A stretch of 63,999 nucleotides of DNA, counting the filler, from Sphacelaria rigidula (lineage: Eukaryota), in assembly GCA_964200075.2 (NCBI GenBank). It is 4 parts of 4 records of this genome, joined end to end, with 100 filler letters (N's around TTAATTAATTAA, not from the genome) between each part and the next. Parts side by side here need not be neighbours in the genome. Positions count along the whole stretch, not along the records: positions 48,193 to 63,999 come from CAXNAA020001583.1; 3 more parts are not named here. The stretch is one strand, 5' to 3'. Position 1 is the first letter of the stretch. The number at the start of each line of letters is the position of its first letter. Positions 15,967 through 60,938 of the stretch are shown here, piece after piece. A program made the translations under genes and the position numbers. The notes beneath the pieces are model-generated. The model searched no databases. It was not told the origin of the DNA and was given only the letters and a program-made list of their open reading frames with translations.

Positions 15967-16066
15967 NNNNNNNNNNNNNNNNNNNNNNNNNNNNNNNNNN
16001 NNNNNNNNNNTTAATTAATTAANNNNNNNNNNNNNNNNNNNNNNNNNNNNNNNNNNNNNNNNNNNN
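15967..16066. other. Artificial contig linker (44N-TTAATTAATTAA-44N)
   Basis: Six-frame stop linker flanked by Ns; three identical copies in the window. Confidence 0.97.
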
Positions 16067-32031: not shown

Positions 32032-32131
32032 NNNNNNNNNNNNNNNNNNNNNNNNNNNNNNNNNNNNNNNNNNNNTTAATTAATTAANNNNNNNNNNNNN
32101 NNNNNNNNNNNNNNNNNNNNNNNNNNNNNNN
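32032..32131. other. Artificial contig linker (44N-TTAATTAATTAA-44N)
   Basis: Same linker as at 15967-16066. Confidence 0.97.
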
Positions 32132-47257: not shown

Positions 47258-48092
47258 GTAAGCGTGGAATCGCACTGCCAGTAGAGATATGAGAAGGTGT
47301 TGAATATAACAGAGTCGAAGCCCAACCCAACCCATCACCGTGTTTGGCTGTGCGATTGACCATTGCTCCGCGGTATGCTCCGCGTGATTGATCGCCTGTG
47401 AAAACATGGGAATGTGCTCCCCGCGTGAGTATTCTCGCGTGCGTTTTGTTATCAACACCCCGGTAGAGTCAGTGGACCTGCTTCAAAGCAGAGTCGCAGT
47501 GGTGTCCGGATGAACAATAAAGCGCTCATTGCTAAAGGCGGCGGCGCGGGATGGTTCGGGCGTTCTGGTTGTGAGTGCTTTGACGAAGGCTCACTTTTTT
47601 TTTACAAGCGCTGTGTTTACTGTCGTTTCACACTTCCTTTTGATAAGTAAGTTTTTTTTTTGGTACCAGTGTCATTGTGAGCAGGCATGATTTATTCTGC
47701 CCGCGTTTTCCTCTAGTGGATTCTAGAGCCAGGTAGTGCAAGACTGAAACCACTGCATTTTATCATAAAAATGCAAAAAGTTGCAAAGCCCCTCAAGAGG
47801 TAGTAGCTCTAACATAGTACAGTGCAGGAGAATATATGGCACGGGTACGGAAAACTCTCCTTGCAGAGATGCGGTATAACCCCTTCCCCCCCCGTCCCAG
47901 CTTTGTAGGGGCGGACCCCCGATGGGGTTGGCGTCGGTTGGCGATGACGCTATAAAACACGCCACTCACTGCGTAAGCTAGGCAACCAGCTTACCATTTT
48001 TTTTGCGCACTTGCGTTTTTTTCGCGGTAACCATGATGGTGGTCGAGCTAGATCATGTTGTGCGGCGTGAGAGAACCTCAACTCCGCACAAT

Positions 48093-48192
48093 NNNNNNNN
48101 NNNNNNNNNNNNNNNNNNNNNNNNNNNNNNNNNNNNTTAATTAATTAANNNNNNNNNNNNNNNNNNNNNNNNNNNNNNNNNNNNNNNNNNNN
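48093..48192. other. Artificial contig linker (44N-TTAATTAATTAA-44N)
   Basis: Same linker as at 15967-16066. Confidence 0.97.
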
Positions 48193-48281
48193 ACGGGTGA
48201 CAGCACACCTCGTACAGATAATTATTCATGCCCCAAATGAGCTGACCCGGATCTGTCACGACCTGATGCGTCCGACGTGTG
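48193..48281 (-). mobile_element. Terminus of the same hAT-type family as 38141-39548
   Basis: Reverse complement of 38141-38230; ends TCCGACGTGTG. Confidence 0.8.
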
Positions 48282-48404
48282 CAAGTACCTCCTGATGACA
48301 TTAATCAGATGCTACATATGCTGATGCTGTCAAAAATGCCAGAAAAGAAACGTGACCCCTCAAAAACTTCCTTCCCTATCTACGCCCCACAGGCCTCCTC
48401 TACA

Positions 48405-51400
48405 ATGGCTTCGACGGATCGTGACCTACTGCTTACCCTGATCCGTCGGGTTGAAAAGTCTCGGGACACCAATGCTGGTATCCCGAATTGGGAAGGGGTG
48501 ACATTCAACGACCAGGGCCGCGTCGTTGAGCTGGATCTGATCAGAAGAGGCCTCCGAGGTATTTCAAGGTCTACCCTGGGGCTTGACCTTTCCCCGACAG
48601 TTGGTTTACCGAAAATGGTTTTATCCATGAAATTGTAAATCTTGCAGCAAGCCACGCCGTTGATTTTTCACGCTCCTAAAGTGTGGAGCAACCGGTGGAC
48701 ATGCCTCGTATGTCCAGTCCCCACTGCGCTCGCACGCGGTCTGCACACCGAGACATGTCGCCACCTTTGTATCTCGCCTTGTTGCCCGCCTCCTTGAACA
48801 CGCGTCACCTGTACCCCACATGAAGTGTCTGACCGGTACGTGCCGCTGTTGGACAGCAGGCCTTCGTTACCGCCACTTTGAGGTGCTGCGATTCGTTGTT
48901 CTTGTCGTACTGTATGAGACCTATCAACTACAAATGTGACTCGCACCGACTCAGTAGCGTTGGTGATCGATTTCCTCGTTGACATGAACGCGCCAACCCG
49001 CAGACGCTTTTCACTGCCATGCCCAGGAAAACGTCGCAAACGCTGTGAACCCAGCGGTCCTCTCCCTTGCAAAATCGAATAAAAATCTTCAAAATATCGA
49101 CAGTTTTCCCCGTTGTATTTACAGCGGCAATGTTCACTTATGACACGACCTTATCCTTGTGTCTTCCAGTTGCAGCAGGTCGTACCCCCCTGAATTGAGG
49201 GATGCGTCTCTTGAACTGTTATCTCAAACTGTCGATTTTGTCGAACCATACGAGGTCGAACGGTTTTGGGTTTGAAATATTAAAGATCAGCCGCCGAAGA
49301 ATCGGACAGGAATATTGGACTGCGATTGTGCTGCTCAATATTGATTCATCTTCCATGAACTTCTGACTACAACTCAGGTAAAGTTGACCACCAATCAGGC
49401 AAAGATGAGAATATCGATCTTGTTCCCGTGCTCGATCAAATACCCACACTTTGAGGAAACATCATCCGCTGTATATACCGCTTGGGGTTTCGTATGGACC
49501 TGAGCATCGACCTTACTTCCGTACGGTGAAGCACTTACTTGACATGGCGTTCAATCATGGAGGAAAGATTGGCCCAGACCTTGGGGCTGACGGGCATCTT
49601 CCCCTCGAACGTTCTCCCGTGCAGGGTCTATACCCGAGGCGCTTGGGAATCTCGACGAACTGAGGATGCTGAGGCTAGAGAAAAACAGCCTCACGGGTGA
49701 GAAGTGATGCATTGAGGAGATTTGTATACTGAAAGATGTGCCATGCCTAAGCGAGTAGACCAATACATGGTGTAGCGCCACAGGCGAGACACAGTCGATA
49801 TTTCGGAGACCGACGGAAGCGTTGCGTTGACTTTCGTGTCTGCAGGACACATACCATCAAAACTTGGGGATCTCGACGCGTTGGAGCACCTCGATGCCAG
49901 CGTCAACAAGTTGAATGCTGAGTTTACAAGGTCGTGCAGCCCATTCTGTTTTTCCCATCACATATCGTGAAACGAGTCGGTCTGGCAACGCACACTTCGG
50001 CTAAAAAACACTTTGCACCCTCCCTTGCTCGGGGGTTCTCGAATTGCTTCTGTTGGTGTTGGGATCAGGGGCAGTTGATGTTCCTTGCAATGTTACCGAA
50101 CCTGTGAGCTTACAGCGCCGACCACAACTGCTGTTTTCCATGACATCGTCCCCCCAACCCCCATAAACATAAAGTGGAAACGTCGGTTTCGGACAGCGCT
50201 GTGGCTCAGTTGATAACATAAGCTGAAGGGGTACTACGCGATCAAGGTGCATTAGACCGAGGCCAGGGGGGCGTGATCCGGCTAGCACACGACGAAATCA
50301 ATCCATCATTATTCTCGAGTTTATTCTTCTCCTCAAAACACTGGAATCACTTTCCACGAATGTCGTGAATGAGTATTGCGTGATGATTCCCTCCTAACTA
50401 TTTCCGACTGTAATGATTCGGGAGTAACGATTAGACTGAAAATAATTCTGCCAGGCGGGCTGGTGGTGTCTCAAAAAACGACTGAAAATGAAGGTGACGA
50501 GAGTGGCTGATATATTACAGACCTGCCTTTCTCATCCCTAAAACAAATCAATCTCACCCCTTTTGGGGCCGCACCCCCACTAACACAGGGTTGACCTCGT
50601 GTTGGTGGAATAATCAAAAATATGTCTTCGAGCGACCCATTCAATCCCGGGAAGGCGGAATTCATCGACGAGACCCGGACGACCAGCACGACCAGCACGA
50701 GAGTTGATGTCGGATGTGATGCCACTGCAAAGATCGTGTGGGGGGCCCTATCCCCGGCCCAGATGAGCTTTGACAGGTTTCCCAATGCAGGGTGGTTGCA
50801 CATTGGTTTTATGGAATTACTTGCACTCAGTATACCCCTCACGAGCAACGAAGGGGGCAATGGCGGCCCGCCCCGACCACAAAGGAATGACGAGGTTATG
50901 GGGACGATAGTATCATCCAAAGCCACGAGTGACGGGCGGCCCGCCGGTCGCCGCATTTTGTTGGAAGCTTTCTACCGCGACACATACTGCTTGCTACATC
51001 AGATGTACACCACCTAATGCGCACCCTGCACCTGAAAACAGACCAGATAAAACTTTCGGTCTTCGTCGTAACCCCGCAGTTACATGGGCGGATTTTCAGC
51101 AACACTTCAGTGCTTCGTTGAGACGCGAGACACATCATTCCTCACCAGCCTCGTCAGTCGTCCTGGTGGCCCGGTCCCGCGGGGGTTGAAAAGGGGTATC
51201 CGGTATTTTTCTGTAATTTCTCTCCCAAGATAAACGATTATTCCGAAGTTGGGTATAGAAATTGTTTATTTTCACAGGTACGCTCTGGAAGTTAACCATA
51301 CAACTCGAACTCATGGAGAGTATATGTCCGAGTCGCGACCTGGTCATCATTCTGTCCAATTTTAGTTGGCGTTCGAGAGCAGAGCACACGGGATACATGT

Positions 51401-54400
51401 CGACAGCAATAGCCATACATTTCGACAGGCGTCGTCACGGCCTAGGGAAGTGCCCGCTATCCTGTGCAAAACAAGAACGTAACCCACTGAAGGTGGACAT
51501 GCGCCTTTTATTGTGGTCGCAAGTGGGGACAAGATATCGGCACCACAGCGGCGCAACACTCCCACACAGTTCGTCGGCACCGTTGAAGTAATCGTACGTG
51601 CTATCGTCGGTGCGGATATCTTGTGGCACCCATGTGTTCCGTCCACGGGCATACGGAACACGGATGTATAAACGATATAGCAGACATGAAACGATTTGAT
51701 CCACGCTTCTTTCGCCCAACATGCAGGCGAGATTCCGTCGTGGCTGGGACAGCTGAAGAAGCTGTTCCTGCTTGACATCAGCGATAACGAGCTCAGCGGT
51801 GAGTCTCTCAAACGCGTCCTAGTGTGCGGGAGCAGGGCCGATACCCGACCTCCCTTCAATAGTGCCAGTCCGGGTCCCGTTGATGTCCTGCGGCACTGTG
51901 TTCCGTCCACGTGCAGGCGAAACACAGTTGTAAAAGCCATATAGCAGACATGATGCGATATGATCCACACTCTTTTCGCCCAACATGCAGGCGAGATACC
52001 ATCGTCGCTGCGACAGCTGAAGAACCTGCAGCATCTTTACTTCAACAATATCCAGCTCAGCGGTGAGTCTCTCGAACGCGTCCTAGTGTGCGGTAGCAGG
52101 GTCGATACCCGAACTCCCTCGAATAGTGCCAGTCCAGGTACCATTGATGTCCTGCGGCACTGTGTTCCGTCCACGTGCAGGCGGAACAGAGTTGTAAAAG
52201 CCATATAGCAGACATGATGCGATATGATACACGCTCCTTTCGCCCAACATGCAGGCGAGATACCGTCGTCGCTGGGACAGCTGGAGAACCTGAAGCGTCT
52301 GTACCTCAGCTTTAACCAGCTCAGCGGTGAGTCTCTCAAACGCGTCCTAGTGTGCGGAAGCAGGGCCGATACCCGAACTCCCTCGAATAGTGCCAGTCCA
52401 GGTACCATTGAAGTCCTGCGACACTGTGTCCCGTCCACGTGTAGGCGTAACACACTTGTAGAAACGATATAGCAGACATGATGCGATATGATCCACGCTC
52501 CTTTCGCCCAACATGCAGGCGAGATACCGTCGTCGCTAGGACAGCTGGAGAACCTGCAGGATTGTCTCCTTAACTCTAACCAGCTCAGCGGTGAGTCTCT
52601 CCAAGGCGTCCTAGTGTGCGGAAGAAGGGCCGATACCCCAACTCCCTCGAATAGTGCCAGTCCGGGTCCCATTGAATTCTTGCGGCACTGTTTTCCGTCC
52701 TGGTTCAGCCGAAACACAGTGGTGGAAACGATATAGTAGACATGAAACGATTTGATCCACGCTCCTTTTGCCCAACATGCAGGCGAGATACCGTCGTCGC
52801 TGAGACAGCTGAAGGAGCTGAACCTGCTTTCCCTCAGCAATAACCAGCTCAGCGGTGAGTCTCTCCAAGGCGTCCTAGTGTGCGGAAGCAGGGCCGATAA
52901 CCGAACTCCCACGAATAGTGCCAGTCCGGGTCCCGTTGATGTCGTGCGACACTGTGTTTCGTTCACGTTCAGGCCAAACATGGAACGTTTTGATCCACGC
53001 TTCTTTCGCCCAACATGCAGGCGAGATACCGTCGTGGCTGGAACAGCTTCGAATGCTGAGCCTGATTGACCTCAGCAATAACCAGCTCAGCGGTGAGTCT
53101 CTCAACGGCGTCCTAGTGTGCGGAAGCAGGGCCGATACGCGAACTCCCTCGAATAGTGCCAGTCCGGGTCCCGTTGAAGCCCTGCGACACTGTGTATAAC
53201 AGACATGATGCGGTTTAATCCATGCTCCTTTCGCCCAACATGCAGGCGAGATACCGTCGTCGCTGGGACCTTCGTGGAACCTGAGGCGTGTTTTCCTCGG
53301 CAATAACGAGCTCAGCGGTGAGTCTCTCAAACGCGTCCTAGTGTGTGAAAGCAGGGCCGATATTCGAACTCCCTCGAATAGTGCCAGTCCGGGTCCCGTT
53401 GATGTCCTGCGGCACTGTGTTTCGTCCACGTGTAGGCGAAACACAGTTGTACAAACGATATAGCAGACATGGTGCGATGTGATCCACGCTCCTTTCGCCC
53501 AACATGCAGGCGAGATACCGTCGGCGCTGGGACAGCTGAAGAACCTGCAGCATCTTGGCCTCAGCTTTAACCAGCTCAGCGGTGAGTCTCTCAACCGCGT
53601 CCTGGTGTGCGGAAACGGGGCCGATATTCGAACTCCCTCGAATAGTGCCAGTCCGCGTCCCGTTGATGTCCTGCGGCACTGTTTTCCGATCCTGGTGCAG
53701 GCAAAACACAGTTGTAGAAACGATATAGCAGACATGATGCGATATGATCCACGCTTCTTCCGCCCAACATGCAGGCGAGATACCGTCGTCGCTGGGACAG
53801 CTGGAGAACCTGATCGAGCTGGACCTCAGCAATAACCAGCTCAGCGGTAAGTCTTTTGAACGCGTTCTAGTGTGCGGAAGGAGGGCCGATACCCCAACTC
53901 CCTCGAATAGTGGCAGTCCGGCCACTGATGTCCTGTGGCACTGTGTCCCGTTCACGTGCAGGCGAAACACAGTTGTAGAAACGATATAGCAGACATGATG
54001 CGATATGATCCACGCTCCTTTCGCCCAACATGCAGGCGAGATACCGTCGTCGCTGGGACAGCTGGAGAACCTGATCGAGCTTGACCTCAGCAATAACCAG
54101 CTCAGCGGTAAGTCTCTTGAACGCGTCCTAGTGTGCGGAAGCAGGGCCGATACCAGAACTCCCTCTGAAAGTGCCCGTCCGGGTCCCGTGGATGCTTGCG
54201 GCACTGTGTCCCGTCCACGTGCAGGCGGAACACTGTTGTAGAAACGATAGGAGGCACGATGCCAGGACGGCCGATATTAGAACTCCCAGTGGTGAAACCC
54301 CCCTGTCTTGAACAAAGCAGAAGGTACGTCAACCTGAGAACGAATTCAACCCCGAACAGCAATATGAACCGTGATCCGCACATCGGATTAATCGTCCGAG

Positions 54401-57400
54401 GTGGGGACATGTGCCAGCCGTTAGAAACGTTGAGTCAATATTTTGTTGTTGATTCAACTCCATGTCCAGTAATCGTCAGGGAAATGGTATGTATAGATGC
54501 AAGCAATCAGACACAGTCAAGGTAGTAACAGTAGTAGCAGCATATGTGCAACCAAGAGAAGGATCTCGTTTAGTGTTCCTTCTGAAAACACTTCCACCAC
54601 ATTCCACGTATATCTAGGTGATTCCATTGGGGGGTAGGGGGGGTGAACAACTTGAGAAATCAATCAAGTTCTTTTGCGGTACGTGATGTAAGTTCTAACC
54701 CTAACTCTAGGACATGGTATGAAGAACCGCCGGTGTAGATATTGGGAAATGAAACAGCTTTTTTTTGTTCAGTGTCCTCTTCCTTTTCCAAATTTTTTCG
54801 TGATGATCTTCCGCCTCATCTCAATTTTCCCCCCAATTTTCATAACTTCGCCCGTGTTGGTTTAAGTGTAAAGATGTCGAAGCATGCGGTGGAATCGAAT
54901 TCACTCGTTGCTGATTCGTCCACGCCATACCTTTCCTTCGACGGTTGGGAATATGACTGCCGTGAACCCGCCGGGTACGAGGAAAATCGATTTCACCGTC
55001 ACTCTCGAGTCGAAAACAATCAGATGAGACACGGCGTCAATCTCGAGAAGGAGGAGGGTTTGCCGAGAAAAAATAGGTGTCCATTTTTTTCATATAATCC
55101 GCCCCCAGGCTCGCCAAGCTCGCATTGTTCGGGGGTGCAGGGCCGATATTCCACCTCTTTGTAACACGCCAACTTCTGAGCGAAGCTACGGTAGAGGTTT
55201 ACTTTTGTTTTAGGTTGAATTGTTGAAAGCCTTTTATATAGCGCCGGGATAACCGTTGTAATATGCAGGGAATCCCCGTGCCGCTCAACCAACAACAAAT
55301 TGCTTTTCTCATCCACGTGTATCGCGGCAAAGATGATAAATTTCTGGTCACTTGGTGAATCAGGAGGGCGCAATTTCATTTCCTGCATGAGTTTCATATT
55401 AATGACTCACCAGCTTCATGCCTTTGACGAAGACGTCCACATTGCGAGAACATTCATTGAAAGCATGAGATGGCATCCAACCGAATGCAGGATGGAAGAT
55501 GGTTTTCAGCATGTTTACACCGTTACTGCATTTGAGGACCCGTGCTGCCGCCACACGCACGTCTTGGATTGCGCGTTATACGTTGGCTGTTGACAAAAAC
55601 GCTTCTATATCTACAATGTTTTTTTGGTTCAGTTCAATTTGTTGGAGCAGGTGGAATAGGACCTCAGCGTGAAAGCAGCCTGGAATTACGTTTGGCACAG
55701 GGGTAGACCACAATACAGACGTTTTGATCACGGTTCGATGTTCGAGGGTTCTTGAGGACCACCCTCAGAAAGTGATACATGCTCAACTTCGAAATGCCAT
55801 GTTCCTTGTACAACCGTCGTTCCCACGCGTGTGTGAGTCGGCAATTGGTCAAACGTTTCCTCCGCCTCCGGCTACCTTCATTTGATGTTTTTTTTCAAGC
55901 CGAGGAGTAAAAGCCGAAGCCCGCGTTCTCCTCCTGAAGTGTAGAGATATCTCCTACCACATCTGGCCTACGACCTGCGCTGTGTCCTTAACTGAGACTT
56001 TGAAATGCATGATCCCTGAGCGAGCTGGTGTATCTTCCATCTCGACGAAAACCTTCTAACGGGGATGGGGAGTTGCCTGGGCATCTTCGGCGGAGCACTC
56101 AGCATGATATTTCCGTCGTTTGAATGTCCTCGTTGTGCTTCTTTTTTCACGCTCCATTTATTCCCCAGGATCCTTGTAGGATCTGAAAACTGTTGGCAGG
56201 CGGATAATACTTCACTGATGCAAGCCCTCGTCTGCCCGACCGGATCCCACCGTTGCACTCCGGCCTGTACTCTCACCAGGGATCGGTGAAAAAAGATGTG
56301 TTGCGACTGATTGACAGACCATCCTTGAGAATTAGATTGAAGAACAACCCGTGGATCATGCCGCCGGGGGCCGTGGTGGAGGAGGGGCTCGAGGCGGTGA
56401 AAGCGTACCTCGTGGACGTCCAAGCGGCCAAGAATGCCGGGGCTGATGTCACGTCCCTCAGTCTTCTGAAAGTTGTCTTGGTGGGATCGGCTTCGGCTGG
56501 AAAGACTAGGTAAGTTACTCTGCGAGACAAATGCCCGCTGGTACGCAGCTTCATATAACGGATGGATAGCTGGACAACTCTACTTTTTCTGAATGTATTG
56601 GAACGTGGGCTACTTGATTTCATGACGAGACTGCATAGGCAGCGACTTGTGACATGTGCCAGTCCGGTTGCAGCCTTGTGCCACGGCGTGAAGATGGAGG
56701 CTGGCTGAGGGAGATGTATCCCGTACGAAGATGGCCGCGAATGCGGAAATTTTGTTGCAGATACTTGAACGAACCACAGTTCTTTGACCACATGTTGGAT
56801 GGGGTTTTTCTTCGCGCTGTTGCGGACATTTCGTATACCACCACCATATCCCACCCTCGTGAAAGCGCCGACCCATCGCACCCCCCTCGTGTCGCCGTGT
56901 TGAACGGTTGCAGTTTGATGCAGAGCATTATCGCGGGTTGTGGCTCCCCAACGACGGGGACAACAGCAGAGGCGAGTACAGTTGGGGTGGAACTACACCC
57001 TCACCAGCTCGAGGACACAGCAGTTGAGTTCTTTGACTGCGCTGGGCAGGTCGACTACGCCGGAATGCATCAGACATTCCTTACCCGACAAGCGCTGTAC
57101 CTGCTCGTGGTGGATGTTACGAAGTTCAACGCGGGGATTCCCGATGAGGTGGGCCGACTGAATTCGTTGTGTACCGTGATTTTTGATGCTCGTATCTATC
57201 CGTGGATGATGTCACTGCAGACCTTGTAGATAAACGAATGTGCCACACCCCAGATGCTTCAAGATATCATGTGAAAAACATGGGGAACGCTTGGCCGAGC
57301 AAGGTAGACTTGGCGTGAAGACTAATGCCCGTCAAATACCTGTTGGTGCAGGTAATCCACGAAGACATCATGCGGTGGCTGTACTACCTATACCTTCGGG

Positions 57401-60054
57401 CGCCAGGGTCCACCGTGATCCTCGTGGCCAACAAGTGTGACGGCTCGGTCGATGATTTCGCCGACACTGTGAAAAAGGTCCACATCAGGGTACGGGATCT
57501 GTTGGATGAATGGCACGAGAACCGTGGTCTTGGAGGCCAGTGTAGCGGCCGTGTTACGGACTTGAATATTCTTCCACGCATAAGTCGTGTGAGCTGCGAC
57601 GCCAGAGGCTCCCCGGAGGCTTCGGGTCTTCCCGTGCTGGTAGACCTGATTTTGAAGCAGGCTGCTACGTCCATCCGCGTGCCTCCCGCATGGGACCTTG
57701 CCCTCGAGATGATCAAGGACCTGAGAGCTAGTCGCGATCCAGTACAGGCTGCTCGGGAGAGGCTGGGGTTGTCGAACACGCCCCCGACCGACGGCGTCGG
57801 GAATTCGCACGCTTCACCCTTCATCTCGAAGGACGAGCTTTCCCTGAAGTGGAAACACGTCGTGGAAAATGTTCGAGGCGATGTACCGGAGGCGACTGTT
57901 TCTAACTGGGATAGTGCTCTGAACGGTGCACTATGGATAAGGTGTGTCCATCGTAGGTTGGTGGAGAACTGTTGGTTGTTACCCAACCCAGACCGAAAGC
58001 CAGTTTTGGTGCAAGTGGCTTGATTGGAACCAGTTTTCCACCTTCACTTTTTCGTATTGTTTTCCTTCGCCCACACACACACACATGCCCTGTTCGCTCT
58101 ATCCTGCTTTTGTCTTCAGTGATTTCGCGGGGCACACACTCCGCATTGATGGTGGTGACGGCATCTTCCTGGACGTGCTGTGGCTTTCGAAGGTCTTGAA
58201 CCCTATCGTGAGCCACAAGATACGTAATAGACGGTTCTACCACGAGCGGCTGCCAATGAAACGGAAGCTGGTCGAGGACAAGATTTTGCAACCCGAGTTC
58301 GCCCTTCATCTTTGGGACATGGACACCGATCGTGTACCGCTGCGGCCGGAGGTCAAGAGAGCACTCTTTCGCACTCTCGTCAAGCTAGGTGTTGCTATCC
58401 CCCTCGGGTGCTCAGCCTACGGGGACAGCAATGAACCGGGAGATATGCTGGTTATCATGAGGCTCGAAGAAAAGTGCGATGATGATAAGCAAAGGCTGTT
58501 TGAACACAGCCTTGCCAACGATAAGCAACCAGGTGACAGCGAAGTGACTCTCAAGTGGGAATTCGACAAGGCGGGCCCCCCGCAGGGGTTAGTAGAGCGG
58601 TTAATATCCTCCTGCCATGTACTCGGCGAGGTCGACGCGAGAGTGTGCTGGAGATATGGAGCTGCATTTAAATGTCGCCGGAAGGAACGTAGTGGCAAAG
58701 GGAAGCGTTCGTTATTCACGGTTGCTCTCAGCAGGGCGAGCTACAGCGGTCATGAGCTAGAGTTCACGGCGAGGGTAGTGGGGCCGCTTGAAAATGCGAG
58801 GGTCTGGGCAGCAATCCGCTACGTGGCATCTGGCATGCTCACCTTGTCCAAGGAGTGGCCTGGAGTACTGTGGGAGGCATGGCCAGTGTGTACGGAGGAC
58901 CACGCCAAGAAAGTGTACCTGGCGTCGTCGGTACGAACATGCAGTGTCGCTGTGACAGCTTGTGTTATTATTCTCCGCTCTTCGGGTTTAACACCGGAGA
59001 TCGATTTACTCATCGTCGCACTTGGACTGACCCCCACGCGGGGATCCCAACGGCGGTCGCATGATGTATGTAGCCGAGGCAGCGAAATCCAAACACCGCT
59101 GGAAAATTCAGGGAGTAAAAGAAATACACGATGCAGAGTGAACTGTGGAAACGAGGAGGAATAACTTGGCATGTCCGCTCTTTGCCGTGTATGGTAACAA
59201 GTCCCTTTTGCCTGACGGGTTTTTGCAGGCCGCGCTCGGCTACCTCCTGCTTCCCGCTGCAGCCCCAGATGCGATGAGCGACGAGTGGTGCGAATGCTTG
59301 TTGGAGTCGAGAGGTGTGCTCGCGCATGTTCGCGAAAAACTGGGCGTCGTAGTTGACACAAGAGAAGGTGTGGGCAGAGTTGGTCTTGGCTTGATTCGCG
59401 TTGAGGCTGGTATGGCAACGACGACAATGCCTTCTGATATGACGAAGGCCTATATTAGTGTAAAACCAGTATCTCGTTCGCATCCTTTTCGACTGTTCTG
59501 TGTGTGCAAACGTGACTAGAGTTCACAGCACGTTTTACCGAATGATCACACCCCGCTTGCTGTCCTCAATAGATCCATTCGATGGCGAGCAAGACGAGCC
59601 GGTGGAATCCCCAGAAGACGAGCTGGGGGAACCCCCAGAAGACGAGCCGGGGGAATCCCCAGAAGACGAGCCGGGGGAACCCCCAGAAGACGAGCCGGGG
59701 GAACCCCCAGAAGACAAGCCGGGGGAACCCCCAGAGGGCGATGGGACCGGTGCGACGAGCACCTGCGCGGCCGAAACGTTCGAACGATGGGTGCCGCACG
59801 CGTGGGATACCGCAAAAGGGCTCTTTGGCCTTGCCGTGACAGTGTTTTTAGGAGCAGTCGTGGTAGGCATAGTGGAAGATGAGAATACCCTGTGGAAGAC
59901 TTGTTTGGCGGTTATGGTTCTCCTGGTCGTATTGGCTGTATGTGCTGCAGCTATCGCGTGCAAATTCCCGAGCCGCCGAGAAGCTTGTGACGAGGAAAGG
60001 CGAAGGGGAGGCCAGCAGGGGAGGCCCGAGAATGATGCTGCCGCCATGGCATGA
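48405..60054 (+). CDS. LRR-ROC-COR (ROCO) GTPase with two C-terminal TM helices, ~1140 aa. Exons: 48405-48558, 49625-49696, ten LRR exons (51727-51798, 51991-52062, 52255-52326, 52519-52590, 52783-52854, 53021-53092, 53246-53317, 53510-53581, 53775-53846, 54036-54107), 56280-56509, 56914-57148, 57352-57941, 58120-58930, 59229-59367, 59573-60054
   Basis: LRR N-cap MASTDRDLL...WEGVTFNDQGRVVELDL; 24-aa plant-type LRRs; NNPW..PP..VV..G..AV..YL hinge; P-loop KVVLVGSASAGKT/S; switch I STVGVE; G3 FFDCAGQVDY..MHQTFL; G4 VILVANKCD; COR region IFLDVLWLSKVL...PPQGLVERLI. All junctions are phase-compatible except LRR10 to 56280 (1-nt mismatch). Confidence 0.9.
49179..49230 (+). pseudogene. Degenerate LRR pseudo-exon
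   Basis: CAG|GT CGT AC- CCC CCT GAA TTG AGG GAT GCG TCT CTT GAA CTG TTA reads GR[I]PPELRDASLELL with a 1-nt deletion and no donor. Confidence 0.55.
49846..49917 (+). pseudogene. Intact 72-nt LRR exon with a mutated donor (CTGAGT instead of GTGAGT)
   Basis: TGCAG|GA CAC ATA CCA... encodes GHIPSKLGDLDALEHLDASVNKLN; positions 49918-49923 read CTGAGT. Confidence 0.75.
50553..51189. mobile_element. piggyBac-like non-autonomous element in a ROCO intron
   Basis: Homologous (reverse) to both ends of 36750-37820; termini CCCCTTTTGGGGC / GGTCCCGCGGGGGTTGA. Confidence 0.65.
51610..54250 (+). repeat. Tandem array of 10 exon-intron cassettes (72-nt LRR exon + ~192-nt intron)
   Basis: Exon-start spacings are 264, 264, 264, 264, 238, 225, 264, 265 and 261. 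Acceptor GCCCAACATGCAG|GCGAGAT and donor CTCAGCG|GT(G/A)AGTCT are conserved. Confidence 0.97.
56016..56062 (+). pseudogene. Frameshifted LRR remnant
   Basis: CTG AGC GAG CTG GTG TAT CTT c CAT CTC GAC GAA AAC CTT CTA ACG G reads LSELVYL/HLDENLLTG; no GT donor follows. Confidence 0.6.
59590..59735 (+). repeat. Coding 24-nt minisatellite, ~6 copies (EDEPGEPP)
   Basis: GAAGACGAGCCGGGGGAA(C/T)CCCCA repeats within the last ROCO exon. Confidence 0.9.
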
Positions 60055-60246
60055 CCTTTGAAGCCTCATTGAATGCACGGTACAGCTGTAAGTATGTTTC
60101 ACCGGGAGCTATTTTCTCAGTGCTTTTCGTTGTGCGGTCAAGTCATGTGGCGATGCCGCTGCTGGGCCAAAAGTGCGCACTTAGTAGCCCAAATGACTGG
60201 GAGGCGCAGTCACAGCGAATATGCTCTCACCTTCTAGAACTTCGGA

Positions 60247-60264
60247 TTAGGGTTAGGGTTAGGG
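60247..60264 (+). repeat. (TTAGGG)3 interstitial telomere-like repeat
   Basis: Seen directly. Confidence 0.6.
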
Positions 60265-60487
60265 CAATGCACAACGTTTTCGTGAGATTGAAAAAAGGAT
60301 GACTGAGAGAGATGAGCTCAAATAAAAAAGGAATAATATCAGTGCCAAAATCCCCCTCCTACACGCTTTCGGCAGTAGCTTGCCGCTGAAGCCCTCTAAA
60401 TGTTCGAGTAGGATATTGACGTGTAGCTGTATGGACACGCCAGTGTCGCAGTCGAAACATCATTGAATGTAAAATTCGCCACATTAA

Positions 60488-60938
60488 AACACGGGATCTT
60501 ACAAATTGAGGATGAGAAACCGGGAGAATTGAAATCTTCGTATCCACACCAGATCTTCGAAATGTGATTCCATTTCGTCACCTCATCGCTGTTGGCTACT
60601 GCAACACGCCATGATAATTCGGATGTCGATCATTGACATGTTGGGGTCCTATGGAAAAGTATATATTTCGGAACCATTTTGGCGTCCGTTCGTACACACG
60701 GATATGCCGAAATTGGTGTTTCACCTGGGACCTCACCATTTCGGTGATTAAAACCCAAATTTATATAGTATGTTACAGTCGTCAGTAGGTGAAGTGGAAC
60801 CACGTCAGTAGGTGAAATGGAATTACATCAGCAGTTTAATGGTACCACATTTCGAAGATATGGTATGGATACGAAGGTCAACAAAATCCGGCTTTCTCCC
60901 CAATACAAAATCTATCCTTATTTTGTAAGCTCCCGTGT
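60488..60938. mobile_element. Foldback MITE, copy 2 of the 27126-27568 family
   Basis: Same termini; the internal asymmetric core is inverted relative to copy 1. Confidence 0.8.

What the first reader, a model, noticed from the sequence alone, without database searches (positions are those of the whole stretch)
48405..60054. ROCO receptor built from ten interchangeable, hypervariable LRR exon cassettes: candidate diversifying immune receptor
Seen: ten tandem cassettes at 51727-54107, each a symmetric phase-1 72-nt exon encoding exactly one LRR. Any subset or order therefore stays in frame (up to 2^10 skip combinations in principle). Residues 1-5, 7, 13, 23 and 24 are invariant. The concave-face xxLxLxx positions vary strongly (pos 14: F/Q/K/N/S/R/I; pos 15: L/H/R/D/E; pos 17: D/Y/L/S/F/G; pos 20: D/N/F/S). 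The non-coding introns look more conserved than this exon core. Known: LRR exon shuffling in Ectocarpus ROCO genes was proposed as an adaptive-immunity-like system (Zambounis et al. 2012), so the class itself is not new. To my knowledge the diversification mechanism is unresolved. Inference: a VLR/Dscam-like repertoire generated by splicing and/or DNA recombination.
Basis: partly seen in the sequence, partly recalled or inferred. Interest (0 to 1): 0.88.

Follow-up and report, generated by a model that had tools for sequence, protein, structure and literature searches.

The report
Brown-alga ROCO gene, ten LRR exons
This is a brown-alga candidate immune receptor gene whose binding domain is built from ten near-identical one-repeat exons that vary mainly at the predicted binding face, a gene design already described in brown algae in 2012 and 2024.

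Summary
Ten tandem units of about 264 nt (51727-54107) each hold a 72-nt exon with the same split-codon phase at both ends, encoding one 24-residue leucine-rich repeat. The stated invariant and variable positions are exact. Introns are 88% identical and the exon core 61%.

The cause is fast amino-acid change, not intron constraint. Synonymous divergence (0.148) matches intron divergence (0.128). At concave-face codons dN/dS is 4.6.

The gene has an N-terminal cap, 11 used LRR exons, a Roc GTPase, a COR domain, an acidic repeat and two C-terminal membrane helices. Its closest relatives are brown-alga "LRR-GTPase of the ROCO family" proteins.

RNA-like contigs confirm the predicted splice sites. 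The only two "exon-skipping" joints are ambiguous, because cassettes 6, 9 and 10 share their last 25-27 nt. No DNA rearrangement joint, docking/selector pairing or conserved intron structure was found.

The window copy has a 2-nt deficit that separates the LRR frame from the Roc-COR frame.

Both the architecture and alternative splicing of such exons are published (PMC3341825, PMC11378527). This is a new member of a known kind.

The parts
48405..48558 (+). Exon 1: start codon and a 51-residue N-terminal cap before the LRRs. It has no hydrophobic signal peptide and ends after the first base of a codon.
   Evidence: Frame and GT donor. RNA-like contig joint 48558|49625 in X3. The highest 12-residue Kyte-Doolittle mean in the first residues is 0.65.
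49625..49696 (+). Upstream 72-nt LRR exon (GSIPEALGNLDELRMLRLEKNSLT). Same exon type as the ten tandem cassettes but clearly diverged from them.
   Evidence: Scan. Joints 48558|49625 and 49696|51727 in X3. Pfam LRR_8 E 0.038.
49846..49917 (+). Inactivated 72-nt LRR exon (GHIPSKLGDLDALEHLDASVNKLN). The AG acceptor is kept but the donor reads CT instead of GT. The one bridging RNA-like contig skips it.
   Evidence: Sequence. Pattern scan. Joint 49696|51727.
51633..54249 (+). Tandem array of ten units (exon plus intron). Seven units are 264 nt; the others are 238, 225, 265 and 261 nt.
   Evidence: Tandem Repeats Finder. Unit table and alignment.
51727..51798 (+). LRR cassette 1 (GEIPSWLGQLKKLFLLDISDNELS)
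   Evidence: Joints 49696|51727 and 51798|51991 in X3.
51991..52062 (+). LRR cassette 2 (GEIPSSLRQLKNLQHLYFNNIQLS). The conserved Asn at position 21 is replaced by Ile.
   Evidence: Joint 51798|51991, side 42 nt.
52255..52326 (+). LRR cassette 3
52519..52590 (+). LRR cassette 4, which has the most diverged core
52783..52854 (+). LRR cassette 5. Its downstream intron is shortened to 166 nt.
53021..53092 (+). LRR cassette 6. Its downstream intron is shortened to 153 nt. Its last 27 nt are identical to those of cassette 10.
53246..53317 (+). LRR cassette 7
   Evidence: Joint 53317|53510 in X3 and X5, sides 49 and 72 nt.
53510..53581 (+). LRR cassette 8. Its core looks like a mosaic of cassette 2 (5' part) and cassette 3 (3' part).
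   Evidence: Joint 53317|53510.
53775..53846 (+). LRR cassette 9. It encodes the same peptide as cassette 10 and differs from it at 1 of 72 nt.
54036..54107 (+). LRR cassette 10, the last of the array
   Evidence: Joint 54107|54225 in X3 (side 26 nt, which fits cassette 6 as well), and an X5 loose end running from 54107 into exon-13-like sequence.
53704..53880 (+). Low-divergence tract between units 9 and 10 (5 differences in 177 nt, against 49 in 238 nt beside it). Read as a recent gene-conversion tract centred on the exon.
   Evidence: Pairwise alignment. Fisher P 1.6e-8.
54225..54323 (+). Alternative 99-nt exon that uses the acceptor-like GTGCAG|GCG motif in the last unit's intron. It keeps the splice phase but has an in-frame TAG at its sixth codon.
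   Evidence: Sequence. Joint 54107|54225 in X3, and an X6 contig that runs from this exon into exon-13-like sequence.
56280..56509 (+). Exon 13: linker and the start of Roc with the P-loop GSASAGKT. A 2-nt deficit in the A-rich run 56289-56295 puts it out of frame with the LRR exons.
   Evidence: The X1 contig has 2 extra nt here, 35 of 35 depth (table 4).
56914..57148 (+). Exon 14: Roc GTPase core with the DCAG motif
   Evidence: Pfam Roc PF08477, E 4.9e-7, 30.4 bits against a cut-off of 27. Joint 56509|56914.
57352..57941 (+). Exon 15: end of Roc (NKCD) and start of COR
   Evidence: Joints 57148|57352 and 57941|58120. Motif. Aligns with ROCO homologues.
58120..58930 (+). Exon 16: COR domain
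   Evidence: Homologues E 1.4e-139 to 2.7e-50. Model pLDDT 70.5. All 10 Foldseek hits with E <= 0.001 are ROCO proteins.
59229..59367 (+). Exon 17
   Evidence: Joints 58930|59229 and 59367|59573.
59573..60054 (+). Exon 18: acidic Pro/Glu-rich 8-residue repeat, two hydrophobic helices and the stop codon at 60052-60054
59591..59735 (+). Tandem repeat of 24 nt, 6 copies, encoding (E/D)EPGEPPE-like units just before the membrane helices
   Evidence: Tandem Repeats Finder. Translation.

Best explanation
This is a germline-encoded brown-alga ROCO gene of the membrane-anchored group. Its parts, in order, are an N-terminal cap, 11 used LRR exons, a Roc GTPase, a COR domain, an acidic repeat and two C-terminal membrane helices. 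The bulk of the protein most likely faces the cytoplasm. The ten cassettes are a young tandem expansion of one 264-nt unit (exon plus intron). Inferred: the array grew by unequal crossing-over and was later patched by gene conversion. Introns and synonymous sites have drifted by about 13-15%. The solvent-exposed residues of the LxxLxLxxN strand (cassette positions 14, 15, 17, 19, 20) have changed four to six times faster, which is the signature of diversifying selection on a ligand-binding face. Shown here: the array anatomy, splice phase, domain content, splice junctions in RNA-like contigs, the rate excess at concave codons, and mosaic tracts between units. Inferred: the ligand-sensing and immune role, the mode of array growth, and the membrane topology. 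The diversity documented here lies between repeats of one inherited gene. It is not a repertoire generated in somatic cells.
For: Anatomy:
- Ten 72-nt AG/GT exons with the same phase at both ends.
- Fixed LRR positions G1, P4, L7, L13 and L23 are present in 10 of 10 cassettes; L16 in 7 of 10, L18 in 8 of 10, N21 in 9 of 10.
- Single cassettes hit only LRR families in Pfam: 7 of the 10 submitted at E <= 0.05.

Domains:
- Roc: Pfam 30.4 bits, above the cut-off of 27. G1 GSASAGKT, G3 DCAG and G4 NKCD are present.
- COR: the model of exon 16 finds LRRK1 (8e04, E 1.1e-5), C. tepidum Roco COR (3dpu/3dpt) and LRRK2. All 10 hits with E <= 0.001 are ROCO proteins.
- Two hydrophobic helices near the C-terminus, with 19-residue means of 2.53 and 3.07.

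Relatives: the best is Sphacelaria rigidula, 81% identity. Ectocarpus "LRR-GTPase of the ROCO family" scores E 2.7e-50 and has the same hydrophobic tail.

Splicing: 12 of the 15 listed joints are GT..AG and fall at the predicted exon ends, in runs X3, X5 and X6.

Selection:
- dS 0.148 against intron K 0.128.
- dN/dS is 4.64 at positions 14, 15, 17, 19 and 20, and 0.79 at the codons outside the eight variable positions (11, 12, 14-17, 19, 20).
- Minimum changes per site: 1.80 at first and second positions of concave codons, 0.41 in introns, 0.40 at their third positions. Fisher P 5e-5.

DNA exchange: the unit 9/10 tract, and 2 of 45 unit pairs pass Bonferroni in a run-length permutation test.

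Literature: the same exon type, the same selected sites and the same transmembrane-tail group are described in PMC3341825 (sections 12, 15, 22 read).
Against: - The window sequence is not one open frame. Read as written, the LRR part runs into a stop 11 codons into exon 13. This copy may therefore be a null allele or carry an assembly error.
- The high-depth RNA-like contigs over exons 13-16 differ from the window by about 3-5% (records 16, 29, 30), whereas intron contigs are identical. Much of the transcript evidence for the Roc-COR half may therefore come from a close paralogue.
- The dN/dS figures rest on few synonymous sites (2.5 per pair in the concave set) and on non-independent pairs of repeats that exchange sequence.
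- A pairwise-homoplasy test for recombination was not significant (P 0.49).
- No ligand, immune phenotype or protein localisation was tested.
- Pfam does not recognise the COR region (0 families on exons 15 and 16).
Confidence: 0.85

Rival explanations
1. Combinatorial exon skipping (Dscam-like in outcome) turns the ten interchangeable cassettes into many receptor isoforms within one individual.
For: Every cassette has the same phase at both ends, so all subsets stay in frame. PMC11378527 reports up to nine splice variants with different LRR exon sets in Ectocarpus ROCO genes (sections 11 and 15 read). One search lists the joints 53092|54036 and 53092|54225. One alternative exon (54225-54323) is used in RNA-like contigs.
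Against: The two skip joints have sides of only 25 and 26 nt. The last 25 nt of cassette 6 equal those of cassettes 9 and 10, and the last 27 nt equal those of cassette 10. They therefore fit the ordinary 9-to-10 joint and the 10-to-99-nt-exon joint equally well. Contigs built from 31-letter words cannot cross the shared exon ends, so they neither show nor exclude skipping. There is no docking/selector complementarity above shuffles: flank B maximum is reached in 93 of 100 shuffles; flank C mean is reached in 42 of 100; flank A mean is reached in 2 of 100, uncorrected for three flanks. There are no compensatory changes in the introns (0 of 52 pairs). Fold z-score is 0.21.
Confidence: 0.25
2. 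Somatic DNA rearrangement or templated conversion (VLR-like) reassorts the cassettes in individual cells, as Zambounis et al. hypothesised.
For: Mosaic tracts between units show that DNA exchange happens at least on evolutionary time. RNA-like contigs carry LRR cores with this array's constant 5' part that are not encoded anywhere in the window (table 5c).
Against: The germline gene is already complete, with working splice sites at all ten cassettes in one orientation. That is unlike an incomplete VLR germline gene. The DNA-like run X1 shows no joint inside the array, although contigs drop rare variants. No unit copies or reverse-strand cassettes lie elsewhere in the window. The foreign cores are most simply transcripts of paralogues in a multigene family. 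PMC11378527 states that somatic recombinant ROCO loci have not been reported.
Confidence: 0.03
3. The window copy is a pseudogene or null allele. The 2-nt deficit is real, so the locus yields at most an LRR-only protein of about 326 residues.
For: The frames of the LRR part and the Roc-COR part differ, and reading through gives a stop after 11 codons. The high-depth RNA-like contigs at this spot carry a different, in-frame version. PMC3341825 reports that at least half of the Ectocarpus ROCO loci are disrupted by frameshifts or stops (passage seen).
Against: All 828 downstream codons, across six exons, remain open, and the G1, G3 and G4 motifs are intact. That would be unexpected in an old pseudogene. 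The DNA-like run X1 is identical to the window over three intron stretches (276, 585 and 649 nt), yet it has 2 more nt at exactly this A-rich spot (35 of 35 depth). This fits an assembly indel or a very recent allele. An AG at 56294-56295 could serve as an in-frame alternative acceptor (inference).
Confidence: 0.3
4. The array is an assembly artefact: a collapsed or expanded repeat.
For: Tandem repeats of 264 nt are hard to assemble, and the window has N runs 210 nt upstream of the gene.
Against: Every unit is distinct: intron differences are 7-16% among units 1-9, and there are two different intron deletions. RNA-like contigs join the upstream LRR exon to cassette 1, cassette 1 to 2 and cassette 7 to 8, with sides of 42-72 nt that include the unique cores.
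Confidence: 0.03

Closest known systems
Ectocarpus LRR-ROCO genes with "type I LRR exons" (Zambounis et al. 2012, PMC3341825; sections 12, 15, 22, 27 read)
   Same: One 72-nt exon per 24-residue LRR with the pattern GxxPxxLxxxxxLxxLxLxxNxLx. N-terminal cap, LRRs, Roc, COR. A subgroup with one or two C-terminal transmembrane segments. Inactivated LRR exons inside introns. Positive selection at positions 15, 17, 19 and 20. Frequent frameshifted copies.
   Different: Here the cassettes form one clean, young, same-strand tandem array with conserved 192-nt introns. No LRR exons were found on the non-coding strand. Position 14 is the most variable (7 residues in 10 cassettes). The host is closer to Sphacelaria than to Ectocarpus (81% against 39-56% identity over the COR exon). 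There is an extra acidic 8-residue repeat before the membrane helices.
ROCO genes of Ectocarpus, Saccharina japonica, Cladosiphon okamuranus and Nemacystus decipiens (Teng et al. 2024, PMC11378527; sections 10, 11, 15 read)
   Same: 72-bp LRR exons in which nucleotides 3-71 encode 23 residues. This is the same split-codon layout; they call it phase 2, and it is called phase 1 here. COR is not found by standard profiles. Selected sites lie on the concave face. Alternative splicing of LRR exons is proposed as the source of diversity.
   Different: Their evidence for splice variants comes from Ectocarpus annotation. For this gene, no unambiguous exon-skipping joint was found.
Drosophila Dscam1 mutually exclusive exon clusters
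   Same: Tandem arrays of interchangeable in-frame exons in a recognition protein.
   Different: Dscam uses docking and selector RNA pairing to pick exactly one exon (recalled knowledge). Here several cassettes are spliced in series, and no docking/selector pairing exceeds shuffled controls.
Lamprey and hagfish variable lymphocyte receptors (VLR)
   Same: LRR modules serve as the diversity units of a candidate immune receptor.
   Different: The VLR germline gene is incomplete and is filled in from flanking cassettes by somatic gene conversion (recalled knowledge). This germline gene is complete, with splice sites on every cassette, and no rearranged DNA joint was seen.
Plant LRR receptor ectodomains (GSO1, FLS2, BRI1 and others) and bacterial/animal ROCO proteins (C. 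tepidum Roco, LRRK1/2)
   Same: The 24-residue LxxLxLxxNxLSGxIPxxLGxL repeat type. A profile of the brown-alga homologues hits plant LRR-RLK ectodomains best (6s6q E 1.6e-226). That profile contains the homologues' LRRs, not the window's. The Roc-COR tandem matches C. tepidum Roco and LRRK1/2 by fold.
   Different: There is no signal peptide, no kinase and no ectodomain topology. The LRRs are probably cytoplasmic (PMC3341825 section 12).

Membership tests
ROCO GTPases | Roc (Ras of complex) GTPase domain with G1, G3 and G4 motifs | tested here: met
   Pfam PF08477 on exon 14: E 4.9e-7, 30.4 bits against a cut-off of 27. GSASAGKT, DCAG and NKCD are present.
ROCO GTPases | COR domain directly after Roc | tested here: met
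   Met by fold, not by profile. Pfam finds nothing on exons 15 and 16. The AlphaFold model of exon 16 (pLDDT 70.5) gives Foldseek hits to LRRK1, C. tepidum Roco COR and LRRK2. All 10 hits with E <= 0.001 are ROCO proteins, with query TM-scores of 0.37-0.46.
ROCO GTPases | One continuous reading frame from LRRs through Roc-COR | tested here: inconclusive
   Not open in the window as written, because of the 2-nt deficit at 56289-56295. A contig of DNA-like run X1 has 2 more nt there.
Brown-alga type I LRR-exon ROCO genes (Zambounis 2012) | Each LRR on its own 72-nt exon, pattern GxxPxxLxxxxxLxxLxLxxNxLx, same phase at both ends | tested here: met
   Ten of 10 cassettes plus the upstream LRR exon are 72 nt, AG/GT-bounded and in the same phase. 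G1, P4, L7, L13 and L23 in 10 of 10; L16 in 7, L18 in 8, N21 in 9 of 10.
Brown-alga type I LRR-exon ROCO genes (Zambounis 2012) | Inactivated or reverse-strand LRR exons inside the LRR-region introns | tested here: inconclusive
   One inactivated same-strand exon (49846-49917, donor CT) was found. No reverse-strand LRR exon was found in three scans.
Brown-alga type I LRR-exon ROCO genes (Zambounis 2012) | Excess amino-acid change at concave-face positions | tested here: met
   dN/dS 4.64 at positions 14, 15, 17, 19 and 20. 1.80 against 0.41 minimum changes per site, Fisher P 5e-5.
Dscam-like mutually exclusive splicing | A docking site complementary to a selector sequence beside each variable exon, and only one exon used per transcript | tested here: not met
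   Best 19-nt pairings between the flanking introns and the unit introns are no better than dinucleotide shuffles. Contigs join cassettes 1 to 2 and 7 to 8 in series.
VLR-like somatic assembly | An incomplete germline gene completed by copying flanking cassettes, with rearranged DNA in somatic cells | tested here: not met
   The germline gene already holds all cassettes with splice sites. No array joint is seen in DNA-like run X1. This is weak evidence, because contigs drop rare variants. The enzymes involved are not testable because no genome is held.

The most novel reading that the evidence does not exclude
Cassette choice differs between cells or individuals, so that one locus yields many receptor specificities. 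This could happen by regulated exon skipping or by DNA-level reassortment using the 88%-identical introns as recombination substrates. In this reading, the stop-carrying 99-nt exon from the last repeat unit acts as a switch between a full receptor and an LRR-only product.
Probability: 0.05. Interest if true: 0.9.

Novelty: new member of a known kind. Interest (0 to 1): 0.3.

Why it matters
Brown algae lack the classical plant and animal immune receptor sets. ROCO genes built from LRR exon cassettes are the main candidates for how they recognise pathogens.

This locus is an unusually clean example: ten young units whose introns serve as a built-in neutral yardstick. It shows directly that the binding-face codons change 4-6 times faster than neutral sequence, and that units exchange DNA.

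It also extends the architecture to a lineage nearer Sphacelaria than the four species studied in detail.

It does not add a new mechanism. Whether somatic or splicing-based repertoires exist remains open, and this array would be a good amplicon-sized target (2.6 kb) for that test.

Tried and rejected
- **Whole genome:** none is held for this window, so paralogues could not be surveyed.
- **RNA holders:** The look-up of sequencing runs listed no holder on record as RNA. X3, X5 and X6 are called RNA-like here only because they carry GT..AG joints.
- **Exon-skipping joints:** 53092|54036 and 53092|54225 were rejected as evidence because of the shared 25-27 nt cassette ends.
- **Conserved intron RNA structure:** 0 of 52 pairs show compensatory change and the covariation term is +1.76. 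Single-intron fold z-score is 0.21. No Rfam family is found in 48000-60500.
- **Docking/selector idea:** prompted by an 18-19 nt inverted match between 50663-50681 and the unit introns. It is not above shuffles: the flank B maximum is reached in 93 of 100 shuffles, the flank C mean in 42 of 100, and the flank A mean in 2 of 100, uncorrected for three flanks. A first version using duplex energies timed out.
- **Pairwise-homoplasy recombination test:** P 0.49.
- **Antisense open frames:** frames of 312-344 aa run across the array. They arise because the unit is 264 nt, which is 3 x 88. The 344-aa frame has no homologue among 8000 scored candidates.
- **Unit copies elsewhere in the window:** none, all blastn E > 0.2.
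- **Metagenome scans:** a scan with the intron-exon boundary motif and one with the COR exon both returned nothing.
- **Contig strings searched in the window:** two LRR cores and a 5' UTR string from the RNA-like contigs are absent.
- **Other long open frames:** Pfam on eight of them, including the high-copy element in the large intron, gave nothing.
- **LRR domain structure:** not predicted, because a spliced protein is not a letter-for-letter product of the window.
- **Supplements:** the supplementary tables of both papers were not seen. They may list further selected sites, for example position 14.
Full report
**The observation**

Tandem Repeats Finder reports overlapping arrays of period 264, 238, 225 and 261 nt over 51633-54249. 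A script found exactly ten 72-nt exons bounded by AG and GT, starting at 51727, 51991, 52255, 52519, 52783, 53021, 53246, 53510, 53775 and 54036.

Each exon begins with the last two bases of a Gly codon and ends with the first base of the next. The phase is therefore the same on both sides, and any subset stays in frame.

The ten peptides are GEIPS-x-L ... L-x-x-L-x-L-x-x-N-x-LS. Columns 1-5, 7, 13, 23 and 24 are invariant. Cassettes 9 and 10 encode the same peptide.

**Introns against the exon core**

Mean pairwise identity is 0.88 for the introns of units 1-9. It is 0.96 at the exon ends, 0.61 for exon nt 38-59 and 0.55 for nt 37-48. None of 169 sliding 24-nt intron windows reaches the divergence of the core (maximum 0.193 against 0.355).

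The introns are not unusually conserved. Their Jukes-Cantor distance (0.128) equals the synonymous distance of the exons (0.148). What stands out is non-synonymous change:
- dN/dS is 1.73 over the whole exon.
- It is 4.64 at positions 14, 15, 17, 19 and 20.
- It is 0.79 at the codons outside the eight variable positions 11, 12, 14-17, 19 and 20.

A tree-free count gives the same picture. The minimum number of changes per site is 1.80 at first and second positions of the five concave codons. It is 0.40 at their third positions and 0.41 in introns (10 of 10 against 68 of 192 sites variable, Fisher P 5e-5).

These five positions are the x residues of LxxLxLxxN. By established knowledge of LRR structure they line the concave sheet. 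Zambounis et al. place their selected sites 15, 17, 19 and 20 on the concave face of a model (PMC3341825, section 22 and the Fig. 4 legend read).

**The gene**

Splice joints in contigs of three runs (X3, X5, X6) define the model. Of the 15 joints listed, 12 are GT..AG. The exons are:
- exon 1, 48405-48558
- an older LRR exon, 49625-49696
- the ten cassettes
- 56280-56509
- 56914-57148
- 57352-57941
- 58120-58930
- 59229-59367
- 59573-60054

All have AG/GT borders.

Exon 14 matches Pfam Roc above its cut-off (E 4.9e-7, 30.4 bits against 27). The G1, G3 and G4 motifs are intact.

Pfam sees no COR domain. The same was reported for brown-alga ROCOs in PMC11378527 (section 10). However, an AlphaFold model of exon 16 (pLDDT 70.5) finds LRRK1, C. 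tepidum Roco COR and LRRK2 as its best Foldseek matches. All 10 hits with E <= 0.001 are ROCO proteins.

The last exon encodes six copies of an acidic 8-residue repeat and two strongly hydrophobic 19-residue segments. Exon 1 has no signal-like segment.

The closest database proteins are from brown algae. A partial Sphacelaria rigidula protein is 81% identical. Ectocarpus, Pylaiella, Ascophyllum and Scytosiphon proteins are 39-56% identical. Several are named "LRR-GTPase of the ROCO family". One Ectocarpus homologue has the same hydrophobic tail.

This is the transmembrane-tail group of PMC3341825 (section 12).

**A break in the frame**

The LRR part (315 codons plus one base) and the Roc-COR part (828 codons) are each open. 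In the window they are offset by 2 nt in the A-rich run at 56289-56295. Read as written, the product stops 11 codons into exon 13.

The DNA-like run X1 has no GT..AG joint and matches the window exactly over intron stretches of 276, 585 and 649 nt. It carries 2 extra nt at that spot (35 of 35 depth). The RNA-like contigs carry a further, in-frame variant.

The break is therefore either an assembly indel or a recent null allele. The intact downstream frame argues against an old pseudogene. Frameshifted ROCO loci are common in Ectocarpus (PMC3341825, passage seen).

**What the RNA-like contigs do and do not show**

Joints with sides of 42-72 nt that include unique cores link the upstream LRR exon to cassette 1, cassette 1 to 2, and cassette 7 to 8.

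A joint also links cassette 10 to a 99-nt exon at 54225-54323, but its 26-nt side fits cassette 6 as well. That exon starts at an acceptor-like motif that recurs in most unit introns. It keeps the phase but carries TAG at its sixth codon. Transcripts that include it would encode an LRR-only product or be degraded.

Two listed joints look like skipping: 6 to 10, and 6 to the 99-nt exon. Their sides are only 25 and 26 nt. The last 27 nt of cassette 6 are identical to those of cassette 10, and the last 25 nt to those of cassette 9. These joints are therefore equally the ordinary 9-to-10 and 10-to-99-nt-exon joints.

Contigs built from 31-letter words cannot cross the shared exon ends. Exon skipping is neither shown nor excluded.

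The high-depth contigs over exons 13-16 differ from the window by about 3-5% (records 16, 29, 30). They probably come from a close paralogue. Contigs also carry LRR cores with this array's constant 5' part that are absent from the window. That is expected in a multigene family.

**DNA-level history**

Units 9 and 10 differ at 5 of 177 nt in a tract centred on the exon, but at 49 of 238 nt beside it (Fisher P 1.6e-8). In a run-length permutation test, 2 of 45 unit pairs pass Bonferroni correction (4-10 and 6-7). A pairwise-homoplasy test was not significant (P 0.49).

One dead cassette with a CT donor lies in the large intron at 49846-49917 and is skipped by the bridging contig. No cassette or unit fragment lies on the other strand or elsewhere in the window.

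The simplest history is recent tandem duplication of a 264-nt unit, occasional gene conversion, and diversifying selection on the binding face.

**Tests of special mechanisms**

- The introns show no compensatory base-pair changes (0 of 52 pairs).
- They show no excess folding energy (z 0.21).
- They match no Rfam family.
- An 18-19 nt inverted match between 50663-50681 and the unit introns suggested a Dscam-like docking site. It is matched or beaten in 93 of 100 dinucleotide shuffles. It also lies in a high-copy element (X1 depth up to 81,547 in the bin 50664-51057).
- The DNA-like run shows no joint inside the array.

**Comparison with what is known**

The architecture, the exon type, the selected positions, the transmembrane subgroup, the inactivated exons and the somatic-recombination hypothesis are all in PMC3341825.

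The extension to four species, the alternative-splicing explanation, and the statement that somatic recombinant loci have not been reported are in PMC11378527. That paper calls the same split-codon layout phase 2.

The Phaeoexplorer preprint mentions expansion of ROCO orthogroups across brown algae (passage seen). A search for newer work on ROCO splicing in brown algae listed six papers (titles and abstract starts seen only). By title and abstract, none besides PMC11378527 is about ROCO splicing. I did not see the supplements of any of these papers.

**Verdict**

The interpretation as a ROCO receptor with diversifying LRR cassettes is supported. The proposed repertoire-generating mechanism is not supported by any result here, and in its splicing form it is already published. 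This is a new member of a known kind.

Three small additions come from this locus:
- the intron yardstick for selection
- a clear conversion tract between units 9 and 10
- a stop-carrying alternative exon derived from the repeat unit

Noticed in passing
window 56289-56295: A 2-nt deficit in an A-rich run puts the LRR exons and the Roc-COR exons in different frames. A contig of DNA-like run X1 has 2 more nt here. An AG at 56294-56295 could act as an in-frame alternative acceptor.
   Followed up: partly
window 54225-54323: A 99-nt alternative exon is seen in RNA-like contigs. It starts at a GTGCAG|GCG motif that recurs in most unit introns. It keeps the phase but has an in-frame TAG at codon 6, so it is a possible LRR-only or decay-targeted isoform.
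   Followed up: partly
window 50270-51057: A very high-copy element sits inside the 2-kb intron before cassette 1. Summed contig depth in X1 is 2,342 and 81,547 in two adjacent bins, against about 40-90 nearby. Its open frames have no Pfam match.
   Followed up: partly
window 59591-59735: A 24-nt tandem repeat (6 copies, 94% matches) encodes an acidic Pro/Glu-rich 8-residue repeat just before the two membrane helices. The Ectocarpus homologue P0014 has no such repeat.
   Followed up: no
window 52037-54276, minus strand: Three overlapping antisense open frames of 344, 316 and 312 aa run through the array. They arise because most units are 264 nt (3 x 88) and one antisense frame has no stop. The 344-aa frame has no homologue.
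   Followed up: yes
window 48093-48192, 15967-16066, 32032-32131: There are three identical-format pairs of 44-N runs separated by 12 bases. One pair lies about 210 nt upstream of the start codon. The 5' UTR string seen in an RNA-like contig is not found in the window.
   Followed up: partly
window 52519-52561 (table 5c): RNA-like contigs share the first 41-43 nt of cassette 4 and then continue with LRR cores that are not encoded anywhere in the window. They are most likely transcripts of paralogous arrays with the same constant exon ends.
   Followed up: partly
window 53510-53581: The core of cassette 8 looks like the 5' core of cassette 2 (CAGCATCTT) joined to the 3' core of cassette 3 (CTCAGCTTTAAC). 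This is a possible exchange within an exon.
   Followed up: no
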